Positions 2,959 to 44,455 of a stretch of DNA of 64,000 nucleotides are shown here, one piece after another. Within the stretch, counting starts at the first letter, position 1, and each line of letters opens with the position of its first letter. The notes under the pieces are model-generated. The model did not search any database. It worked only from the letters and a program-made list of their open reading frames with translations, and had not been told where the DNA came from. Source of the DNA: a virus (taxonomy: Duplodnaviria > Caudoviricetes); the IMG/VR virus record IMGVR_UViG_3300012344_000020, positions 25,414-89,413 of that record; one strand, given 5' to 3'. The position numbers and the translations under genes were made by a program.

Positions 2959-3140
2959 AACATCGGAAGCAACAGAAATGACGGAAGATTTCTTAAACAT
3001 CAAAAGGAACAAAAGAAGCAAAAAGTTCCGTTCATTCCGTTCATTCCGATGTTAAAGAAATATCATGGCACACGCTTTTCGTTTCTTTTGATGTAAACAT
3101 CCCGATGCGAAAAGGTTCGTTTCATTCGCGTTATTCGATG
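2959..3140. repeat. AT-rich palindromic element (dispersed family)
   Basis: AACATCGGAA (2959-2968) and TTCCGATGTT (3044-3053) form a perfect inverted pair; 9-bp TTCCGTTCA/TTCGTTTCA units; second partial copy up to about 3140. Confidence 0.7.
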
Positions 3141-3156
3141 ACAATAAAAAACAATA

Positions 3157-3762
3157 ATGATTATGCAGAAAGAAAAGAAAACAACTCCTCAGATGGCTAT
3201 TGCAGCTTTCGAGCAGTCCTGCAATGAACTTGCCCGTCAGGTGAACCACCGCTTGTTTGACGACACGCGCTCATGGTACTGGATAGGCAACGAGATAGGC
3301 GGCTCCTGCGACTTTGATGATGCCGACATCCTCACACCCGAGGAAATGGTCATCATCCTCCAGACGCCCCACTTCACCTACAACGATTATGCCGAGTGGC
3401 GCGATGCCAACATCGAGTATGGCGACACCAAAGGCTACATCAACCTGCGGTCGTGGATCATAGGTTGCCGACACTTTATGCTGGCGGACAAAGCGAAGAA
3501 AGAAACTATGATAGAGCCGTCAGAACTACGAAAAAAGAGCATGGAAGCCTTCGATAATAAATGTCGTGCTTCACTTGAGAAGATACAGCCCGCGCTGCAA
3601 AAGACTGCTGAAAGCGGAAAAACGGAGCTCACTATTTCCGATGTGAAAAAGCATTATCCTGATGTGGAAGATTTGTGTGTAGCATTACAGATGCACGGTT
3701 TCAGAACATTCTATTCAGAGTTTTTCGATAGTTTGACCGTTTATTGGTGTTTTCGCAAATGA
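3157..3762 (+). CDS. hypothetical protein (201 aa)
   Basis: ORF with A-rich leader; its TGA overlaps the ATG at 3759. Confidence 0.75.
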   Translation: MIMQKEKKTTPQMAIAAFEQSCNELARQVNHRLFDDTRSWYWIGNEIGGSCDFDDADILTPEEMVIILQTPHFTYNDYAEWRDANIEYGDTKGYINLRSWIIGCRHFMLADKAKKETMIEPSELRKKSMEAFDNKCRASLEKIQPALQKTAESGKTELTISDVKKHYPDVEDLCVALQMHGFRTFYSEFFDSLTVYWCFRK

Positions 3763-3890
3763 CCACTTACCAACTCTCCGTGCATCCCTTGAGCCATAAG
3801 GTAGAGTGGGGAGGGTGGAAGCCTGTCGCTCCTGCCCTCCGTGCCACCGACTACAAGCGTCCGCACTGTGTCCTTATAACGTATGATTAA
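3759..3890 (+). CDS. mini-ORF A, 43 aa, C5-MTase variable-region-like module
   Basis: MTTYQ...APALRATDYKRPHCVLITYD*; ATGA-coupled upstream; TATGATTAA junction downstream. Below the ORF-track size cutoff. Confidence 0.65.
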   Translation: MTTYQLSVHPLSHKVEWGGWKPVAPALRATDYKRPHCVLITYD

Positions 3891-4029
3891 ACTCTTACCT
3901 TTGAACGTGGATAAAGACCACACCGCCCCGACGGTGCTTGCCGGATATTTCAAGTTCGGCTCGCGCACTTTGTTGCTCGGCAACTACGGCACTACTGGGG
4001 GGGGGGGAATCTGTATTGAATATGATTAA
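3883..4029 (+). CDS. mini-ORF B, 48 aa, G11 tract in frame
   Basis: MIKLLPLNVDKDHTAPTVLAGYFKFG...TTGGGGICIEYD*; G11 at 3997-4007. Confidence 0.65.
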   Translation: MIKLLPLNVDKDHTAPTVLAGYFKFGSRTLLLGNYGTTGGGGICIEYD

Positions 4030-4169
4030 GATAAACTACCACATTCCTCTCGTAGGGGGGGGTACTATCGCAAGTGACCGATGCCTTCAACCGAGGGCCG
4101 CTTTGGCACGTTAGCCGATGTGTGAGGAGCAACGTGCATGATGCAGGAGCGCTCATCTGTTACGAATAA
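4022..4169 (+). pseudogene. mini-ORF C, frameshifted at G8
   Basis: 148 nt; G8 at 4055-4062. G7 or G10 would give ...SRCVRSNVHDAGALICYE*, matching the sibling C-termini. Confidence 0.55.
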
Positions 4170-4184
4170 CAAAAAAGACAAACA

Positions 4185-5560
4185 ATGATAACAAAATTCA
4201 ACTTCAACGACCGCACCATCAAGAGCTATGCCATACGCAAGCTCACGCCAAAGGAGTGTTTCCGGCTGATGGGTGTGCGCGACGATACCATCCGCACGAT
4301 GCAGACCACCGTGGCGGAAATGAAAGAGCGCCGTGGGCAAGCCGACAATGGCGGCAAGCAAAAAGATGCCGACATGGTAATCTCAGCCAGTCAGCAGTAC
4401 AAGCAGGCGGGCAACTCTATTGTGGTGGATGTACTCAAGGCCATCTATGCACAGTTGTGGTACCCCAAGGAGCCGAAGCCGAAGGCGCAGCTCTCCATGT
4501 TTGACGATTTCTTTCCCGAGGATGCGCTGCCGCAGATGCCGGTGGATGCTAACCATGGCGAGAAGGTCATCATCACCACTTTCAGCGGCTACGACTCGCA
4601 GCTCATGGCTGCCGACGCCTTAAAGGAGGAACATCCCGATTTCCGCTGGACGTGTATAGGGCGGAGCGACATCGACAAGTATGCCTGCCAGATGCACGAC
4701 CTCGTGTTTCCGCAATATGCCGACCGCGCCCTTGGCGACATCACCAAGATAGACTGGCACAGCGTGAAGCAGTCGCTCGAAGGTCGCGAGGTAGACCTCT
4801 TCACCTATTCCTCGCCCTGTCAGGACATCAGTCAGGCGGGCAAGCAGATGGGACTGAAGGAAGGCTCCGACACCCGAAGCGCATTGCTCTTCGGCGTGTG
4901 GCGGATGCCATTGATGTATTGCGACCCAAGTATCTGTTGCAGGAGAATGTGGCGGCACTGGTGAGCGAGAAGTTTATGCCCGACTTTCAGAAGTGGCTCG
5001 CCAAACTCGAAAGTCTGGGATATGTGAACCGCTGGGCACGGCTCAATGCCAAGGACTACGGTGTGCCGCAAAACCGCGACCGCGTGTTCTGCCTCTCCAT
5101 GCGCCGTGATGTGGCTTTCGACTATCAGTTTCCCGAAGGCTTCCCTTTGCAGACCAGGTTGGAGGATGTGCTTGAAGAGGAAGTGACAGAAAGGTTTTTC
5201 CTCAAAGACAATGCCGTGGAGAAATTCCTTAAAGCCAACGACACCGACAAGGCTCTCTTCATGCAGTTCGACCTTCCGCCTACACACGATGCGGCAATGT
5301 TCCTCAAGACGTGGCTCCAGATGTGGATGCGTGGTGATTATGGCTTTGATGATTCTTGTTATGAAGAAGAATGGTTTGAAGAAAACGGATATACGTATTG
5401 GGATTTAACGCCATCGGAACTTCAAGAAACATTAGAAAATATCAAGGAAGATTTGTGCCAAGCGCATTTGGCGTTTAGCAATAAAGAACTGATGGATGAA
5501 GAGTTTTCCTTGTTGTTCCAAGAAAACATGAAACGCCGTCCGAAAGATGAAAACCGATAA
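4185..5560 (+). pseudogene. circularly permuted C5-cytosine DNA methyltransferase, frameshifted near 4890
   Basis: N-terminal IRKLTPKECFRLMG and QYKQAGNSIVVDVL (motifs IX/X), then TFSGYDSQ (I) and YSSPCQD (IV) in frame 4185..4964. RPKYLLQENV (VI) and QNRDRVF (VIII) lie in frame 4652..5560. Confidence 0.85.
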
Positions 5561-5716
5561 TCCGCCAGAAAGGGTAATCCGCCCCATCGTTCTCGGCCAA
5601 TACTCGCCCTCGCAGAACGGCATCATCGTGTCGCCGCACGGCATAGCCCTCTGCATAAGTGGGGGGGTAGAGGACACGATGTGGATAAACCAAAGATATT
5701 GATTGAGTATGACTAA
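5547..5716 (+). pseudogene. mini-ORF D, frameshifted at G7
   Basis: 170 nt; G7 at 5661-5667. G8 gives ...GIIVSPHGIALCISGGGRGHDVDKPKILIEYD*. Confidence 0.6.
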
Positions 5717-6026
5717 AACGCCCACCTATAAGCGCGGCACGTTCACCAGAAACGGAAAGACCTACGGCATATATCCCGATGGTTCTACCTACAGGATATA
5801 TGCCGATAACAACATCCCTTTCCTTCAGATAGTGGATGTCGGAGGCAGCACGTTCCTCCGTGTGCGCCAGGCTACGGAGCAAGGCTATGCCGACTGTCCC
5901 GTCTTCGGTGTGTGCGACATCAGCTATCCCTCGTCAGCCTTGCGCAGGGCGAGAACGGTAGATGGTGGCCGGCTGGCCAACGCCCTGACGTGCGGGCAGC
6001 AGTTGGCGGTGTTTGTAGAATTATAA
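5709..6026 (+). CDS. module E, 105 aa, MTase insertion-like domain
   Basis: LRVRQATEQGY...DISYPSSALRRAR...ANALTC resembles the IRQATxKGY...YPxSxTRRGRV segment of large phage C5-MTases. Confidence 0.7.
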   Translation: MTKTPTYKRGTFTRNGKTYGIYPDGSTYRIYADNNIPFLQIVDVGGSTFLRVRQATEQGYADCPVFGVCDISYPSSALRRARTVDGGRLANALTCGQQLAVFVEL

Positions 6027-6032
6027 AGAATT

Positions 6033-6163
6033 ATGACGAAATATCTGTTTTACCAATGTCCAAGAGGTGAAAATCGGGGGGTATTCTCTCGCAGAGCATC
6101 TGTCCTACCATCACCATTTGCAGTTGGGCGTGTAATTGTTTTTTGATAAAAGAGTATGACTAA
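6033..6163 (+). pseudogene. mini-ORF F, frameshifted at G6
   Basis: 131 nt; G6 at 6076-6081. G7 gives FYQCPRGENRGGILSQSICPTITICSWACNCFLIKEYD*. Confidence 0.55.
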
Positions 6164-6308
6164 ACAAATTCCATTCGTGCAACGCTCGGCATGTCTGAGT
6201 ATTCGGGGGGGGTACTCCACGGCAATCTCCTCTCGCTACGACGGTTGGGCAGGCTTGTTTGGCAAGAACCACGGGCAGCACACTATGGTGCTGGTGGCGT
6301 ATGAGTAG
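6156..6308 (+). CDS. mini-ORF G, 50 aa, G8 in frame
   Basis: MTKQIPF...SIRGGYSTAISSRYDGWAG...MVLVAYE*; G8 at 6205-6212. Confidence 0.6.
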   Translation: MTKQIPFVQRSACLSIRGGYSTAISSRYDGWAGLFGKNHGQHTMVLVAYE

Positions 6309-6486
6309 GCACAGAGCGGTGCTTGTGCATTACCGCACGGAGGAAGCGAAAGCCTACCGCCGCGAGCATGGCGACCGTGGCGGATGCCGGTATCAAGACA
6401 AGCTGCACCGTATGAACCCGCAGCCGTGGAGCAACACAGTGAGTACAGTAACGAAAGACAACCTGTTATGCGAAGAATATACATAG
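6301..6486 (+). CDS. mini-ORF H, 61 aa
   Basis: RTEEAKAYRREHGD...SNTVSTVTKDNLL, an MTase variable-region-like motif; coupled start. Confidence 0.65.
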   Translation: MSRHRAVLVHYRTEEAKAYRREHGDRGGCRYQDKLHRMNPQPWSNTVSTVTKDNLLCEEYT

Positions 6487-6639
6487 CCGCTTCTCGCGGT
6501 CGCGACCCGCTGAATCCTACCGACCGCAAACACTCGGTGAAAGGACGCAGTGAGCAGCGGTTTTAGATTAATGGGGGGTACGAGCAACGCCCTTACCTCT
6601 GTCGGCAAAGACAACTTAGTACTGATGGCGTATGATTAA
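6468..6639 (+). pseudogene. mini-ORF I, in-frame TAG (6564-6566) plus frameshift at G6
   Basis: AASRGRDPLNPTDR...QRF*IN, then GTSNALTSVGKDNLVLMAYD* in another frame; G6 at 6573-6578 (G5 or G8 restores the frame). Confidence 0.55.
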
Positions 6640-6811
6640 GCGATATTACATCGGTTGGGTGCGCAGCGGAAAGGACGGCCACGGACTCGTCAAGAGCCGA
6701 CCGCGCAAGCATATTGCTAATGCCGTAACCGCCTCGCCACCCGGCGGCTTTGCCGACCCTCGCGACGGACTGGGCAACACTACTCCGCATGTGGTGATGG
6801 TGTTTGAGTGA
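6632..6811 (+). CDS. mini-ORF J, 59 aa
   Basis: IANAVTASPPGG...GNTTPHVVMVFE*; starts at a TATGATTAA junction. Confidence 0.6.
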   Translation: MIKRYYIGWVRSGKDGHGLVKSRPRKHIANAVTASPPGGFADPRDGLGNTTPHVVMVFE

Positions 6812-6852
6812 AGAACAACAACAGTAAAGAAACAACTAAAATTTATAGAGCA

Positions 6853-7353
6853 ATGAGTATTTACACGCAATATGAAAAGATTAAGTCGTTATGGCATCCC
6901 ATAACTGACGAGGACTTCAATATTGATTTCAGTATTCCCTTTGTCCTGTTTTCTGATGAAGGCAGTATTCTGTACTTTAATCCGAAGCGTGATAAGTTGG
7001 ATGACATTTGGGATGACATGGTTCTTTTCGAGGAAGACGGAAAGACGATGACCGAAGAATTTAAAGATCACATGCGCAGCTTTGAATTCGGTTATATGTA
7101 TCTCGATGATGAGTTTTATCGTGCGATAGACAATTTCCGACACAAACATCTGGAAGACGTAAAGGCGAAGAACGAGAGAGCCAATGTTTTCGTTCAATAT
7201 GCGAACAATGATTTCCGTGTTCTTGATGTTTTTGACTTTCGGCAGGATGGCAGTCCGTACCGGGATTGGAACACATCGGATGTGGCATATTTCGTAAACC
7301 TGGATAGTGTGCCTGCCACAAGTTTGAATGGCCTTTTTCTGCAAATGGATTAA
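6853..7353 (+). CDS. hypothetical AT-rich acidic protein
   Basis: ATG at 6853 follows the ATTTATAGAGCA leader. Confidence 0.7.
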   Translation: MSIYTQYEKIKSLWHPITDEDFNIDFSIPFVLFSDEGSILYFNPKRDKLDDIWDDMVLFEEDGKTMTEEFKDHMRSFEFGYMYLDDEFYRAIDNFRHKHLEDVKAKNERANVFVQYANNDFRVLDVFDFRQDGSPYRDWNTSDVAYFVNLDSVPATSLNGLFLQMD

Positions 7354-7379
7354 GAACAACTTAAATTTATAGAGCAATT

Positions 7380-7856
7380 ATGAAAGAAAACAAAGGACTA
7401 TACAATGCGCTCATCCGCAGACTGGGCGAGATGGTGAAAGAGAATGTGGAACTGGAGCAGCGTGTGCATCAGCTCACGGGTGAGTACAACCGTGTGGTGA
7501 AGCAGGCGAATGAGAAGTCTGTGGATTCTCTGATGAGCGAAAACGAAAGTTTGAAAAAGCTAAGCAATCAACTTCAGATAGAGCGCAACGAGGCGCGTAC
7601 CAGTGTGGCCGAATACAAACACCACGAAGCGGAACTACTCAATGCAATTAACCGACATTGCGAATCCGACATCATGAAGTGTGGTGAAACCTGTCCGAAC
7701 AAACCAGGATGTGATGTAGGCTCAAAAGATTGCTGTGCTTGTAAGCATGAATTAGGACAAAAGAAATATCTTAGCGTTTACTTTATTTTTTGCGCCTACC
7801 GCTACGACAAGCAGCAGGAGGAAGAAGCAAAGGAAAGAAATAATGAAGATGAATAG
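7380..7856 (+). CDS. coiled-coil protein with Cys-rich C-terminus
   Basis: Heptad-rich N-terminus; CGETCPNKPGCDVGSKDCCAC. Confidence 0.7.
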   Translation: MKENKGLYNALIRRLGEMVKENVELEQRVHQLTGEYNRVVKQANEKSVDSLMSENESLKKLSNQLQIERNEARTSVAEYKHHEAELLNAINRHCESDIMKCGETCPNKPGCDVGSKDCCACKHELGQKKYLSVYFIFCAYRYDKQQEEEAKERNNEDE

Positions 7857-8013
7857 CCACCTCCATACACATTGCCTCGGCATGCTCACCGTGCCGCCCT
7901 ACGACCGCAAGTTTGAGCAGTCGCGCAGAGTGTTCTCCCCGAAGGGCGTTGCGCCTACGGTGTATACCTTCGGGGGGGGCAACCTTGAGATAAAGATATT
8001 ATTGGAATTGTAA
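7843..8013 (+). CDS. mini-ORF K, 56 aa, G8 in frame
   Basis: EQSRRVFSPKGVAPTVYTFGGGNLEIKILLEL*, a classic MTase variable-region repeat; G8 at 7972-7979. Confidence 0.65.
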   Translation: MKMNSHLHTHCLGMLTVPPYDRKFEQSRRVFSPKGVAPTVYTFGGGNLEIKILLEL

Positions 8014-42002: not shown

Positions 42003-43067
42003 ATGATACTATCCACCAACGAGGAGCTTCGCCTTCACATCCCCAGTAACGCCATCGACGAGGTGAACCTGCTGCAAGGCATCCTCGACAACAGCGAAAA
42101 GGACTTGCTGAAAGACAAGCTCGGCAATGCGCTCTACACGCGCCTTTGCGAATATTACGCTTCCATCACGCCGCAGGACTTCTACCTTGATGTTACCAGC
42201 GGCACATACACGCAGCACCCTTGGGCAGAACTTCTGCTTAATGCCCAGCGCATGATAGCCAACGATGCCATGGCCCGCTATGCCTATCAGCAGGCTATCA
42301 GCGTGAACGGTGCCGGGGTGAACATGGCTTCAAGCAGCGACTACAACACCGCCACCACACAGATGCTCGACAAGGGTGTGCAGGGCTACCGCAAGGAGGC
42401 TATGGTGTCGCTCAACAACCTCTTGCTCCTGCTTGAGAATTGGGCTGAGACCATCAACACGCCTATGCCTGCCGATGAGCAGAATACGGACGAAAACGTA
42501 CCGACAGAGGGAGAAAGTGTACCGAAAGATGATGATGGCGTACAGAATACTGACGAAAGTGTACGCAACAGTGAGATTGAGGAAATCACGACGCTGTGGC
42601 AAGAGTCGAAGTACTACTATGCCCACAGCGACTTGCTCATACCCAACTGCCGTATGCTTCAGCACTTCATCGACATCTATGACAACCGCGACAAGTTTAT
42701 CCGACTCTTGCCCGACCTGCATTTCATTCAGGACGAATACATCACCGAGGCAATAGGCGAAGACGAACTCAACCGCTTGCTCCAGTCTGCCGACAATGCC
42801 GACCGCACGCTGCTCCGCAAGGTGCGCCGCTTGATGGTGGCTTATCTCGAAGAGCGCACCCCCGTGCTCTCCATCGACAAGACTCGCCGACAGTCTGCCC
42901 ACGACGAAGCCGTGTCGCTCAAGACTTCTATCCTCGCCCTGCTCAAAGCGCGTGAGGATGCCGCACAGCCCGACACGTCTGCCGACACCACCACGGAAAC
43001 CGAAAGCGAAGGCTTCAAAAATAATCAGGAAGGCTCACGAATGTTCGTGTCGCCAATGTTGTATTAA
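42003..43067 (+). CDS. head-tail adaptor-like protein (DUF6712-like)
   Basis: Follows the portal; MILSTNEELRLHIP...AE..L...LG..LY pattern; internal acidic low-complexity insert. Confidence 0.55.
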   Translation: MILSTNEELRLHIPSNAIDEVNLLQGILDNSEKDLLKDKLGNALYTRLCEYYASITPQDFYLDVTSGTYTQHPWAELLLNAQRMIANDAMARYAYQQAISVNGAGVNMASSSDYNTATTQMLDKGVQGYRKEAMVSLNNLLLLLENWAETINTPMPADEQNTDENVPTEGESVPKDDDGVQNTDESVRNSEIEEITTLWQESKYYYAHSDLLIPNCRMLQHFIDIYDNRDKFIRLLPDLHFIQDEYITEAIGEDELNRLLQSADNADRTLLRKVRRLMVAYLEERTPVLSIDKTRRQSAHDEAVSLKTSILALLKAREDAAQPDTSADTTTETESEGFKNNQEGSRMFVSPMLY

Positions 43068-43092
43068 ACGAAAGAAACAAATTTATAGAGCA

Positions 43093-44455
43093 ATGATAAA
43101 CTCAGAGTTGAATTTCAAGTTGGAGGATGTCTTACCAAATTTCTCCAATGGCTTGCAAAAGAAAATCCTTTATAGCATAGACCTCTTGCAAAAGGCAGAA
43201 CGTTTGGCTATGGCTTATGATAGCGAGAACGGGTATTTTCTTGCTTTCAGTGGCGGAAAGGATAGCCAATGCCTCTATCATGTGGCAAAGCTGGCTGGTG
43301 TAAAGTTCCAGGCACACATGAACCTCACGAGTGTTGATCCACCCGAAGTGATACGTTTTGTGAAGAAGCAATATCCCGATGTAGTGTTGGCAAAGCCGAA
43401 GGATAGTATCTACAATATTGCCGTGCAGCGCAAAATATTACCTACAATGCGTGTGCGCTGGTGTTGTGCCGAGTACAAGGAAACGGCAGGCGCAGGAAAG
43501 GTTACGTTGATTGGCGTACGCCATGCCGAGAGTACCCGTCGGGCAAAACGCAATGAGGTGGAGATTAACAACCATTCTTTCAGTGGCAATTTGGAAGGTT
43601 TGGAAGAATACCGTAAGGAGAAAACCGCCAAGGCTGAACGCCGCAAGGAAAAGACGGAGCAAGAGCTGGTAACTATTGTAAATGCAAAGGGCGAGCGCAC
43701 GCTTGGTTGTATTCACGGCAAGGAGTCTTTGCTTATTTCGCCCATCATTCATTGGAGCGAAAGCGATGTATGGGAGTTTCTGAATGTACTCGGAATCGCC
43801 CACTGCGAACTTTATGACCAAGGCTTTAGACGTATAGGTTGCATCCTCTGTCCGATGTCGCAACCCAAGCAGAAACGCAAGGAAATAGAGCGTTGGCCTC
43901 ATGTAAAGCGTGGTTGGATTAAGGCTATCAAAGCTATCCGAAACGGGGGGGGGATCAACAAGCAAACCTATCACCAATTCGGGGGGGGGGGGGCACGGGG
44001 GTGACGCAGGTGGTCGGGGTGCGCGGGGGGGGGGGGGGGGGGTACGCAGACCTTCAAGGACGGTTACATTTGGTGGAACATCAAGTCCGACATGGTGCCG
44101 TGCAGGAATGTCAGAGGGATGCTCAGGACGGAGAATACGAATGGCGGCCTAACACCAATGGCTACTTCATCAACGGCAAAGCCATGCGAGCAGCAAACGC
44201 CTTCACCCCCCCCCAAACCAGCGGACAAATCGCGGATTGTGGGCAATGCAAGACCCGACTTTCGCATCTGCAAACAATGGATGCGCGAACAGCAAAACTG
44301 GGTTTTCAGAAAGCTCCTCGTCTGATCGCTTGACTGAGGAGCAAGAAAACGAAATAGCGGAAAACATCTTCGATTGGTGGATTTCGGGCAAATCATACAA
44401 GAAATGGTATAGCGAGAAATTCCTTCAGCAGAAGTTGAATTTTGAAGAAGATTAA
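43093..44455 (+). CDS. PAPS-reductase-like (PP-loop) protein with a homopolymer-interrupted C-terminal region
   Basis: AFSGGKDSQC, RWCCAEYKE, GVRHAES.RR, RIGCILCP. As sequenced it stops at 44004. The probable terminal segment ENIFDWWISGKSYKKWY lies in another frame beyond the G9, G13, G18 and C9 tracts. Confidence 0.8.

What the first reader, a model, noticed from the sequence alone, without database searches (positions are those of the whole stretch)
3759..8013. Split, circularly permuted C5-methyltransferase surrounded by 11 free-standing variable-region mini-genes
Seen: the MTase core (4185-5560) has motifs IX-X at its N-terminus, ahead of I, IV, VI and VIII, and has no fused variable region. 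Eleven ORFs of about 43-105 aa surround it: A-C directly before motif IX and D-J directly after motif VIII, which is where a variable region sits in the canonical order, plus K at 7843. Each carries one motif resembling those seen fused in the variable region of large phage C5-MTases (APALRATDYKRP, PLNV..APTV.AGYFK, IVSPHGIA...GGG...PKI, QATEQGY..YP.S..RRAR, CPTIT..SW, SNTVSTVTKDNL, SRRVFSPKGVAPT...GGGN.EIKI). Most end in a shared hydrophobic-x-Y-[D/E]-stop. Established: permuted C5-MTases (e.g. M.BssHII), two-subunit ones (M.AquI, M.EcoHK31I) and multispecific phage MTases with interchangeable TRDs (SPR, phi3T) exist, and the layout fits permutation by duplication. Inference: one catalytic core may be completed in trans by a library of small peptides, giving plug-in specificity or regulation. 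I am not aware of such an arrangement being described.
Basis: partly seen in the sequence, partly recalled or inferred. Interest (0 to 1): 0.88.

Follow-up and report, generated by a model that had tools for sequence, protein, structure and literature searches.

The report
Phage methylase with detachable recognition mini-genes
A family of roughly 100-kb phages carries a cytosine DNA methylase core that has lost its DNA-reading domain, flanked by 6-14 tiny, separately translated genes that each encode one such domain; this would be a new way to build a many-target anti-restriction enzyme, though in this window the core gene itself is broken.

Summary
Window 3759-8013 holds a circularly permuted C5-methyltransferase core (motifs IX-X, then I-VIII) with no target-recognition domain (TRD). 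Around it lie 11 mini-ORFs of 43-105 aa.

Eighty related IMG/VR phage contigs (core 70-82% identical) show the same layout:
- About 70 have an intact 432-467 aa core, never fused to a module.
- Mini-ORF ends of the form hydrophobic-x-hydrophobic-x-[YF]-[DE]-stop number 498 on the forward strand and 10 on the reverse.
- There are at least 16 module families.
- dN/dS is 0.07-0.25 in frame and about 1-3 out of frame.
- 86% of junctions are TATGAnTRR, where the ATG inside Tyr-Asp/Glu starts the next gene.

The modules are true TRDs. They match the stretch between motifs VIII and IX of hundreds of full-length PF00145 enzymes. A distant phage (Dulem virus 40) carries the same TRD types fused in one protein.

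So the stops are a maintained design, not decay. Trans-assembly of core and module, and any resulting methylation, remain untested because the complex predictor was unavailable.

This window's copy looks switched off or decaying. The core has a 2-nt insertion and four modules are out of frame, three of them at poly-G tracts.

First-stage notes on this same stretch flagged the same features. I found no published description.

The parts
3759..3890 (+). Module A (43 aa, family 3, ...APALRATDYKRPHCVLITYD*). Intact. Its ATG overlaps the TGA of the upstream ORF 3157-3762.
   Evidence: The family is present in 42 loci, with dN/dS 0.13.
3883..4029 (+). Module B (48 aa, family 15, ...APTVLAGYFKFG...TTGGGGICIEYD*). 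In frame. Contains a G11 run at 3997-4007.
4022..4169 (+). Module C (family 5). The N-part MIKINYHIPLVGG is in frame 2 and the C-part ...SRCVRSNVHDAGALICYE* is in frame 0. The frames change at the G8 run 4055-4062, so it is out of frame here.
   Evidence: L001 is also shifted at this tract but by a different step.
4185..5560 (+). Permuted, TRD-less C5-MTase core. Motifs IX-X are at the N-terminus, followed by I, IV (SSPCQDIS), VI (QENV) and VIII (QNRDR), then a roughly 75-aa helical tail. It is broken by a 2-nt insertion at about 4890-4893 (frame 0 to frame 2).
5547..5716 (+). Module D (family 1, ...IVSPHGIA..GGG.GHDVDKPKILIEYD*). Its start overlaps the 3' end of the core by 14 nt. It is out of frame at the G7 run 5661-5667.
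   Evidence: Orthologues with G5 or G8 are intact; those with G7 are truncated.
5709..6026 (+). Module E (105 aa, ...RVRQATEQGYADCP..SYPSSALRRARTV...FVEL*). Intact. Residues 48-100 match the variable region of PF00145 enzymes.
   Evidence: AF2 model of the module alone: pLDDT 80, all-beta.
6033..6163 (+). Module F (...CPTITICSW..FLIKEYD*). Out of frame at the G6 run 6076-6081. It is intact in L001.
6156..6308 (+). Module G (50 aa, family 2, ...RGGYSTAISSRYDGW...MVLVAYE*). In frame. Contains a G8 run at 6205-6212.
   Evidence: dN/dS 0.17
6301..6486 (+). Module H (61 aa, ...YRTEEAKAYRREHGDRGG...SNTVSTVTKDNLLCEEYT*). Intact.
   Evidence: coordinates; orthologues
6468..6639 (+). Module I (family 0, subtype c). 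The N-part MRRIYIAASRGRDP... is in frame 0 and stops at 6566. The C-part ...GGTSNALTSVGKDNLVLMAYD* is in frame 1. It is out of frame near the T4 run and the G6 run at 6573.
   Evidence: This type is 60% identical to residues 254-301 of a canonical 368-aa MTase.
6632..6811 (+). Module J (59 aa, family 4, ...GLGNTTPHVVMVFE*). Intact.
   Evidence: dN/dS 0.25
7843..8013 (+). Module K (56 aa, ...SRRVFSPKGVAPTVYTFGGGNLEIKILLEL*). In frame. Contains a G8 run at 7972. It is separated from J by two unrelated ORFs (6808-7353 and 7380-7856).

Best explanation
This is a modular, multispecific cytosine-5 DNA methyltransferase system of a clade of roughly 100-kb phages known from metagenomes.

One polypeptide carries all the catalytic and cofactor motifs in permuted order (IX-X-I...VIII) but has no target-recognition domain. 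Instead, the TRDs are encoded as a polycistronic string of 6-14 mini-genes of 40-105 aa on both sides of the core.

Each mini-gene is translated on its own. Coupling is by termination and reinitiation at an 8-nt overlap, ATGAnTAA, whose ATG lies inside the conserved C-terminal Tyr-Asp/Glu codons of the previous module.

Inferred steps:
1. Each mini-protein folds as a small beta module.
2. It docks non-covalently on the core, probably by pairing its conserved C-terminal strand (hydrophobic-x-hydrophobic-E-Y) with the core's N-terminal hairpin next to motif IX.
3. This rebuilds the small domain, so that one catalytic core methylates as many sequence motifs as there are expressed modules.
4. The phage DNA is thereby protected from many host restriction systems.

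Poly-G runs inside many modules probably switch individual specificities on and off by slippage.

Shown: the anatomy, its conservation, selection on the peptides, their TRD homology, the coupling junction, and G-run polymorphism that tracks frame status.

Inferred: binding, methylation, specificity and the anti-restriction role.

The copy in this window (frameshifted core, 4 of 11 modules out of frame) is likely inactive or decaying.
For: 1. The core is a permuted C5-MTase without a TRD.
- PF00145 hits both halves.
- phmmer against PDB places core residues 16-60 on M.MpeI 333-377 and residues 171-328 on M.MpeI 94-255.
- Against a canonical 368-aa enzyme (P0114), core 133-366 matches residues 10-227 and core 13-105 matches residues 298-368.
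- Foldseek top hits are M.HhaI and M.MpeI.
- About 70 of 80 relatives (one search lists 72 with a stop-to-stop frame over 430 aa; one search finds 70 distinct MIT[KR]-started cores) have an intact 432-467 aa core, with all catalytic motifs invariant in the 35 aligned. None is fused to a module.

2. The modules are TRDs.
- The family I(c) profile hits 707 longer proteins, mostly PF00145, at 50-65% identity.
- It maps to residues 254-301 of P0114, which is exactly the gap left by the core.
- Module E matches the variable region of PF00145 proteins.
- Dulem virus 40 has the same TRD types fused in one 373-aa protein that ends in motifs IX-X, next to a separate I-VIII subunit.

3. The modules are maintained as separate genes.
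- Strict motif ends: 498 forward against 10 reverse.
- At least 16 families.
- The order is syntenic but presence and absence vary.
- dN/dS is 0.07-0.25 in frame and about 1-3 in the other two frames, with dS up to about 1.3.
- All three stop codons are used (TAA 338, TGA 94, TAG 66), and the 2340-aa and 2373-aa ORFs of the window are open under table 11, so no recoding is involved.

4. Translational coupling.
- 427 of 496 ends have TATGAnTRR.
- Tyr is coded by TAT 427 times and by TAC 28 times.
- 366 of these ATGs open an ORF of at least 25 aa, median 50 aa.
- A second, more divergent array (L085) uses the same Tyr-Glu ATG with the stop three codons after the Glu codon.

5. Module E alone gives a confident all-beta model (pLDDT 80).

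6. Precedent, from PMC3404938 and PMC5944983.
- M.AquI and M.EcoHK31I work as two polypeptides.
- Fragments of M.SssI complement each other, and distal splits need a short overlap.
- Here the module's C-terminal strand and the core's IKSY strand both align to the same VVENY of P0114, which is such an overlap.

7. G-runs.
- 7 of the 10 runs of six or more Gs in the 64-kb window lie in this 4.2-kb array.
- Run length varies from 3 to 11 among orthologues, and the out-of-frame lengths coincide with truncated ORFs.
Against: - No direct evidence exists that a module binds the core or that any methylation results.
- Separating a TRD from the enzyme at both of its ends has no experimental precedent. 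For M.SssI, splits in the distal variable region complemented poorly (PMC3404938).
- The core has its own confident C-terminal helical bundle (model residues 366-435). This could be a recognition or dimerisation element of its own, which would make the core self-sufficient.
- The 80 relatives are one clade of metagenomic contigs, so the counts are not independent events.
- In this window the core is frameshifted and 4 modules are out of frame, so this particular locus may do nothing.
- The structural search with the module E model found no solved TRD.
Confidence: 0.6

Rival explanations
1. The modules are joined to each other or to the core during translation, by programmed +1 frameshifting or bypass at the TATGAnTAA junctions. 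The real product would then be a classical single-chain multispecific MTase like that of SPR or Dulem virus 40.
For: - Every downstream module lies in the +1 frame relative to the previous one, at a nearly invariant 9-nt junction.
- A stop in the A site is a known trigger of +1 shifts (established knowledge: prfB).
- Fused homologues exist.
Against: - The P-site codons (GAT, GAC, GAA, GAG) cannot re-pair in the +1 frame (inference from the sequence).
- The junction carries a perfect ATG, with strong TAT-over-TAC bias, which fits reinitiation.
- In L085 the stop lies three codons after the Glu codon while the ATG is kept.
- 6-14 serial shifts would give a negligible yield.
- The core-to-module and module-to-core junctions are not of this type, and the frame relation between module C and the core differs between the window and L001.
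- No natural fusion was seen in about 75 loci.
Confidence: 0.07
2. The mini-proteins are functional but do not serve the phage core. For example, they could bind or poison host C5-MTases or restriction enzymes, or occlude sites on DNA. The core would then act alone through its C-terminal helical domain.
For: - The peptides are under purifying selection, but nothing ties them physically to the core.
- The core has an extra, confidently modelled helical tail that comes in several variants.
- Module E is predicted to fold on its own.
Against: - Modules always flank the core on the same strand. The first downstream module overlaps the core's stop by 14 nt.
- Together, the core and one module account for the full canonical enzyme, with a duplicated boundary strand.
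- The fused Dulem virus 40 homologue places the same TRDs in an MTase subunit.
- No TRD-only protein with an independent function is known (my knowledge).
Confidence: 0.15
3. The region is a decayed multispecific MTase gene. The stops and frameshifts are pseudogene damage, and the mini-ORFs are not genes.
For: - In this window the core carries a 2-nt insertion and 4 of 11 modules are split across frames.
- A distant relative has the TRDs in one ORF.
Against: - Stop positions, the junction and the frames are conserved in 80 loci at dS up to about 1.3.
- dN/dS is 0.07-0.25 only in the module frames.
- The motif-stop count is 498 forward against 10 reverse.
- The core is intact in about 70 of 80 relatives.
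Confidence: 0.03
4. The modules are silent cassettes that are moved by recombination into an expression site, in the manner of a shufflon or pilS-type gene conversion.
For: - The layout is a cassette-like array with a short shared junction sequence.
- Content varies between genomes.
Against: - No core in about 75 loci contains a TRD slot or a fused module.
- The modules share no DNA repeats beyond about 9 nt, and there are no inverted repeats.
- Each module has its own start codon and is under selection in place.
Confidence: 0.03

Closest known systems
Multispecific C5-MTases of Bacillus phages (M.SPRI, M.Phi3TI, M.H2I, M.Rho11sI)
   Same: - One catalytic framework serves several short TRDs of about 40-50 aa, each giving an independent specificity. 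This is a phage anti-restriction function (established knowledge).
- The TRD sequence types here, such as xxRGRxxxxQRxEIxxxxxNxLTSVxKDN, belong to the same kind as those found in full-length enzymes.
   Different: - There the TRDs are concatenated in one polypeptide, in canonical motif order.
- Here each TRD has its own start and stop, and the core is permuted and has no TRD at all.
Dulem virus 40 (PP511379.1) split MTase: XCD03592.1 (motifs I-VIII) plus XCD03591.1 (tandem TRDs followed by IX-X)
   Same: - It is the closest deposited relative of the core (41% identity).
- It carries the same TRD types in series, with matches to I(c), E and K/D modules.
- It is already a two-chain enzyme.
   Different: - Its TRDs are fused to each other and to motifs IX-X.
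- The motif order across its two genes is canonical.
- Its function has not been tested either.
Two-subunit C5-MTases M.AquI and M.EcoHK31I, and engineered fragment complementation of M.SssI, M.BspRI and M.HhaI
   Same: An active enzyme assembles from separate polypeptides split in or near the variable region. Distal splits need a short overlap (PMC3404938).
   Different: - Those systems have two fixed halves and one specificity.
- Here the detached piece would be the TRD alone, free at both ends, chosen from a library of 6-14.
Natural circularly permuted C5-MTases (M.BssHII, M.Alw26I, M2.Eco31I, M.Esp3I, M2.BsaI)
   Same: Motifs IX-X precede motif I, and the permutation point lies in the variable region (PMC5944983).
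   Different: - Those enzymes keep the TRD in the chain. Most are Type H (TRD-IX-X-I..VIII).
- This core starts after the TRD and has no TRD at either end.
Type I R-M specificity (HsdS) subunits and phase-variable mod/hsdS loci
   Same: - Works like these systems: a separate specificity subunit serves a catalytic subunit.
- Homopolymer tracts change expression.
   Different: - The enzyme class is unrelated (N6-adenine MTases).
- HsdS is a large two-TRD protein.
- No such subunit is known for C5-MTases (my knowledge; none found).

Membership tests
C5 DNA methyltransferase (PF00145), core | Pfam PF00145 match above the gathering score | tested here: met
   77 and 81 bits for the two halves (cut-off 22). 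PDB C5-MTases at E 3e-27. Foldseek hit to M.HhaI at E 1e-10.
C5 DNA methyltransferase (PF00145), core | Catalytic and cofactor motifs are present: I (FxGxG-like TFSGYDS), IV (PC), VI (ENV), VIII (QxRxR), IX (RKLTPxEC) and X (GNS) | tested here: met
   All are invariant in 35 aligned cores. They are present in the window's two frames.
C5 DNA methyltransferase (PF00145), core | Uninterrupted reading frame in this window | tested here: not met
   There is a 2-nt insertion at about 4890-4893 relative to 5 relatives. About 70 of 80 relatives are intact.
C5 DNA methyltransferase (PF00145), core | TRD between motifs VIII and IX in the same polypeptide | tested here: not met
   Residues 228-297 of the canonical P0114 have no counterpart in the core. 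The core's C-terminal tail is a helical bundle.
Circularly permuted C5-MTases (M.BssHII type) | Motifs IX-X are N-terminal to motif I | tested here: met
Circularly permuted C5-MTases (M.BssHII type) | The TRD is retained in the chain (Type H or J of PMC5944983) | tested here: not met
Multispecific phage C5-MTases (SPR/phi3T type) | Several TRDs homologous to those of monospecific enzymes | tested here: met
   at least 16 module families
Multispecific phage C5-MTases (SPR/phi3T type) | The TRDs are contiguous within one polypeptide together with the catalytic motifs | tested here: not met
   Stops after every module are conserved in 80 loci.
Multispecific phage C5-MTases (SPR/phi3T type) | Methylation of several distinct target sequences | not testable with these tools
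   Needs co-expression and 5mC mapping.
Multi-subunit C5-MTase (M.AquI-like) | Physical association of the separate polypeptides into an active enzyme | not tested
No biochemical data exist.
Phase-variable (homopolymer) methyltransferase loci | A homopolymer tract inside the coding sequence whose length differs between strains and sets the frame | tested here: met
   G-runs of 3-11 occur among orthologues. For family 1, G5 and G8 are intact and G7 is truncated. Seven of the ten runs of six or more Gs in the window lie in the array.
Phase-variable (homopolymer) methyltransferase loci | Length heterogeneity within one population (switching) | not tested

The most novel reading that the evidence does not exclude
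C5-cytosine methyltransferases can work like Type I systems. A TRD-less catalytic core would be programmed in trans by a genome-encoded library of free mini-proteins of 40-105 aa, each a specificity subunit. Each would be translationally coupled to its neighbour, and many would be individually switchable by a poly-G tract. One phage would then have a combinatorial, evolvable set of methylation specificities against host restriction.
Probability: 0.5. Interest if true: 0.9.

Novelty: new variant of a known kind. Interest (0 to 1): 0.82.

Why it matters
- **Enzymology.** If the modules work in trans, this would be the first C5-MTase with detachable specificity subunits. It would also be the smallest natural DNA-sequence-recognition modules known to programme a methylase.
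- **Phage biology.** It would explain how large gut phages keep up with the many restriction systems of their hosts: they could gain, lose or switch 50-aa genes instead of evolving whole enzymes.
- **Open question.** It would give a natural system in which to study how tandem TRDs of multispecific MTases engage a single catalytic domain.
- **Applications.** It would offer a ready-made parts list (at least 16 TRD families and one core) for programmable 5mC writers.
- **Gene calling.** These ORFs get no Pfam hit, and many are below the minimum lengths often used for gene calling (my knowledge).

Tried and rejected
- **Pfam scan of ten modules at E up to 10:** no hit. TRDs are too short and variable for PF00145, so homology was shown by profile and phmmer searches instead.
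- **Structural search with the module E model:** Foldseek against PDB gave nothing at E 0.001 or better. VIA-align wide gave a best Z of 2.3. This is uninformative about TRD identity.
- **blastn of the region against GenBank phages:** no match.
- **PHROGs on nine window proteins:** only a head maturation protease hit.
- **Stop-codon reassignment:** rejected, because all three stops are used and the long ORFs are open under table 11.
- **Recent tandem duplication of the modules:** rejected, because there is no DNA similarity beyond the 9-nt junction.
- **Natural module-core fusions:** searched for and not found. The in-frame upstream extensions are off-frame junk.
- **Context of distant stand-alone hits P0137 and P0177:** the contigs were too short to tell.
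- **Literature searches**: no description of this arrangement was found.

Full report
**What is in the window**

The ORF listing and a three-frame read confirm a C5-methyltransferase gene at 4185-5560 flanked by eleven short ORFs. A-C lie upstream (3759-4169), D-J downstream (5547-6811), and K at 7843-8013.

Eight modules end in hydrophobic-x-[YF]-[DE]-stop. E ends in VEL, K in LEL and H in EEYT.

Successive modules overlap by TATGAyTAA or TATGAGTAG. The ATG that starts the next module (MIK.., MTK.., MSR..) therefore lies inside the Tyr-Asp/Glu codons of the previous one. Module D starts 14 nt before the stop of the core.

Both halves of the core hit PF00145, but the gene is broken. Aligned with five relatives, the window has a 2-nt insertion at about 4890-4893, between motifs IV and VI. 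Modules C, D, F and I are also split over two frames. C, D and F split at G8, G7 and G6 runs, and I splits near a T4 run.

**The core is permuted and lacks a TRD**

- For the intact orthologue in L001, phmmer against PDB aligns residues 171-328 to M.MpeI 94-255 and residues 16-60 to M.MpeI 333-377.
- Against a canonical 368-aa enzyme (P0114), core 133-366 matches residues 10-227 and core 13-105 matches residues 298-368. Nothing covers P0114 residues 228-297.
- An AF2 model (pLDDT 70) shows an N-terminal beta hairpin, the MTase fold, and a confident C-terminal helical bundle in place of a TRD.
- Foldseek returns M.HhaI, M.MpeI and M.HaeIII.

**Relatives**

A peptide-pattern scan of IMG/VR returned 80 loci with cores 70-82% identical, on contigs of up to about 110 kb.

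- About 70 have an uninterrupted 432-467 aa core. All catalytic motifs are invariant in the 35 cores aligned.
- None of them has a module fused to the core at either end.
- All have the mini-ORF array.
- Over the 81 sequences, 498 forward stop-to-stop segments end in hydrophobic-x-hydrophobic-x-[YF]-[DE], against 10 on the reverse strand.
- C-terminally anchored clustering gives at least 16 families with five or more members.
- The order is broadly syntenic, but families come and go. Each phage has 6-14 modules.
- Stops are TAA 338, TGA 94 and TAG 66. The window's 2340-aa and 2373-aa ORFs are open under table 11, so recoding is not the explanation.

**The mini-ORFs are genes**

- Pairwise Nei-Gojobori dN/dS within eight single-type families is 0.07-0.25 in the annotated frame. 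In the two other frames it is about 1-3, with one exception of 0.36. dS reaches about 1.3.
- Of 496 strict ends, 427 carry TATGAnTRR.
- Tyr is coded by TAT 427 times and by TAC 28 times.
- 366 of the embedded ATGs open an ORF of at least 25 aa, with a median of 50 aa.
- Residues 2-3 of the modules (I/N/T/S followed by K/N/D/E/R) are simply what the overlap dictates.
- A more divergent array on a Logan contig (L085) keeps the same Tyr-Glu ATG but places the stop three codons after the Glu codon, giving ...EYEER* followed by MKN....

I read this as termination-reinitiation coupling of a polycistronic string.

**The modules are TRDs**

- Pfam finds nothing in them.
- A profile of family I(c) finds 707 longer proteins, mostly 300-1000-aa PF00145 enzymes, at 50-65% identity over 82-91% of the module.
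- In P0114 the match is at residues 254-301, exactly the gap left by the core.
- The window's module E finds many stand-alone proteins of 60-130 aa. More weakly, it matches the variable region of PF00145 proteins.
- The module's last strand (VYLEY) and the core's IKSY both align to the same VVENY of P0114. The boundary strand is therefore duplicated.

This overlap is of interest because engineered M.SssI fragments split distally need a short overlap to complement each other (PMC3404938).

**A fused relative**

The best GenBank phage hit to the core is Dulem virus 40, at 41% identity. There, one gene encodes motifs I-VIII. The next gene encodes a 373-aa protein with a series of TRDs followed by motifs IX-X. 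Its TRDs match module types I(c), E and K/D.

This shows the common origin of the modules with a classical multispecific, two-chain enzyme. Because the close relatives keep the stops under selection, the split state is derived and maintained, not decay.

Bacillus phage Deep Blue merely has tandem canonical MTase genes. That is a plausible raw material for permutation.

**Poly-G tracts**

Seven of the ten runs of six or more Gs in the 64-kb window lie in this 4.2-kb array. The other three cluster at 43945-44042.

Among orthologous modules the run length ranges from 3 to 11. In family 1, G5 and G8 copies are full length and G7 copies are truncated. This fits slippage-driven on/off switching. Heterogeneity within a population could not be tested.

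**Mechanism and its limits**

The best-supported reading has three parts:
- a TRD-less catalytic core;
- a library of separately translated TRD mini-subunits that complete the small domain in trans;
- a resulting multispecific anti-restriction methylation.

Binding and activity are inferred, not shown. The complex predictor was unavailable. Module E alone gives a confident all-beta model (pLDDT 80) but finds no solved counterpart.

The rivals (serial +1 frameshifting into a fused protein, a function independent of the core, pseudogene decay, and cassette recombination) are weighed in their own section. Decay and recombination are contradicted.

**Comparison with what is known**

- Natural permuted C5-MTases keep their TRD in the chain (PMC5944983).
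- M.AquI and M.EcoHK31I are fixed two-chain enzymes (PMC3404938).
- SPR-type enzymes have fused TRDs (my knowledge).
- Four literature searches found no description of free TRD genes.

I class this as a new variant of a known kind.

**This window's copy and the scan's earlier notes**

For this particular window, the broken core and the four out-of-frame modules suggest a copy that is switched off or decaying.

First-stage notes on the same stretch list the same array, junction and G-tract ideas. They are unchecked readings and not independent evidence.

Noticed in passing
window 43945-44214: G9, G13 and G18 runs (43945, 43981, 44025) and a C9 run (44206) sit at the 3' end of a PAPS-reductase-domain ORF (42952-44004, PF01507 at E 5e-21) and in the next ORF (44001-44333). 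This may be a second homopolymer-controlled locus, possibly for DNA modification.
   Followed up: partly
L082 (Dulem virus 40, PP511379.1) 3022-4962: A split multispecific C5-MTase. A 258-aa subunit carries motifs I-VIII. A 373-aa subunit carries about six tandem TRDs followed by motifs IX-X. The record annotates them only as two methylases.
   Followed up: partly
L085 (Logan SRR29277923 contig) 158-1590: A divergent array of at least seven TRD-like mini-ORFs ending in ...EYEE[RIVHQS]*. The next start is at the ATG inside TATGAA. No core lies on this 1.9-kb contig.
   Followed up: partly
core residues about 366-441 (alignment A4 columns 400-470); window about 5290-5557: The C-terminal helical bundle of the core comes in at least four sequence variants among relatives, while the rest of the protein is about 90% conserved. 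Its role is unknown; it could be a docking platform, a dimerisation element or a DNA-binding element.
   Followed up: no
P0130 (117 aa): A database protein joins the core's N-terminus (MITKLNFTDRTIKSYAIRKLTPKECFRLMGVRDNVIGT) directly to an E-type module. It may be a deletion variant or an assembly chimera.
   Followed up: no
window 6808-7856: Two ORFs (181 aa and 158 aa) with no Pfam or PHROG hit are inserted between modules J and K. The second is Cys-rich (CGETCPNKPGCDVGSKDCCACKH).
   Followed up: no
window 5709-5850 (module E residues 1-45): The N-terminal half of module E (YKRGTFTRNGKTYGIYPDGSTYRIY) forms beta hairpins with a GxxYxxxxDGxxY rhythm like cell-wall- or choline-binding repeats. 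It is absent from the shorter E-type homologues.
   Followed up: no
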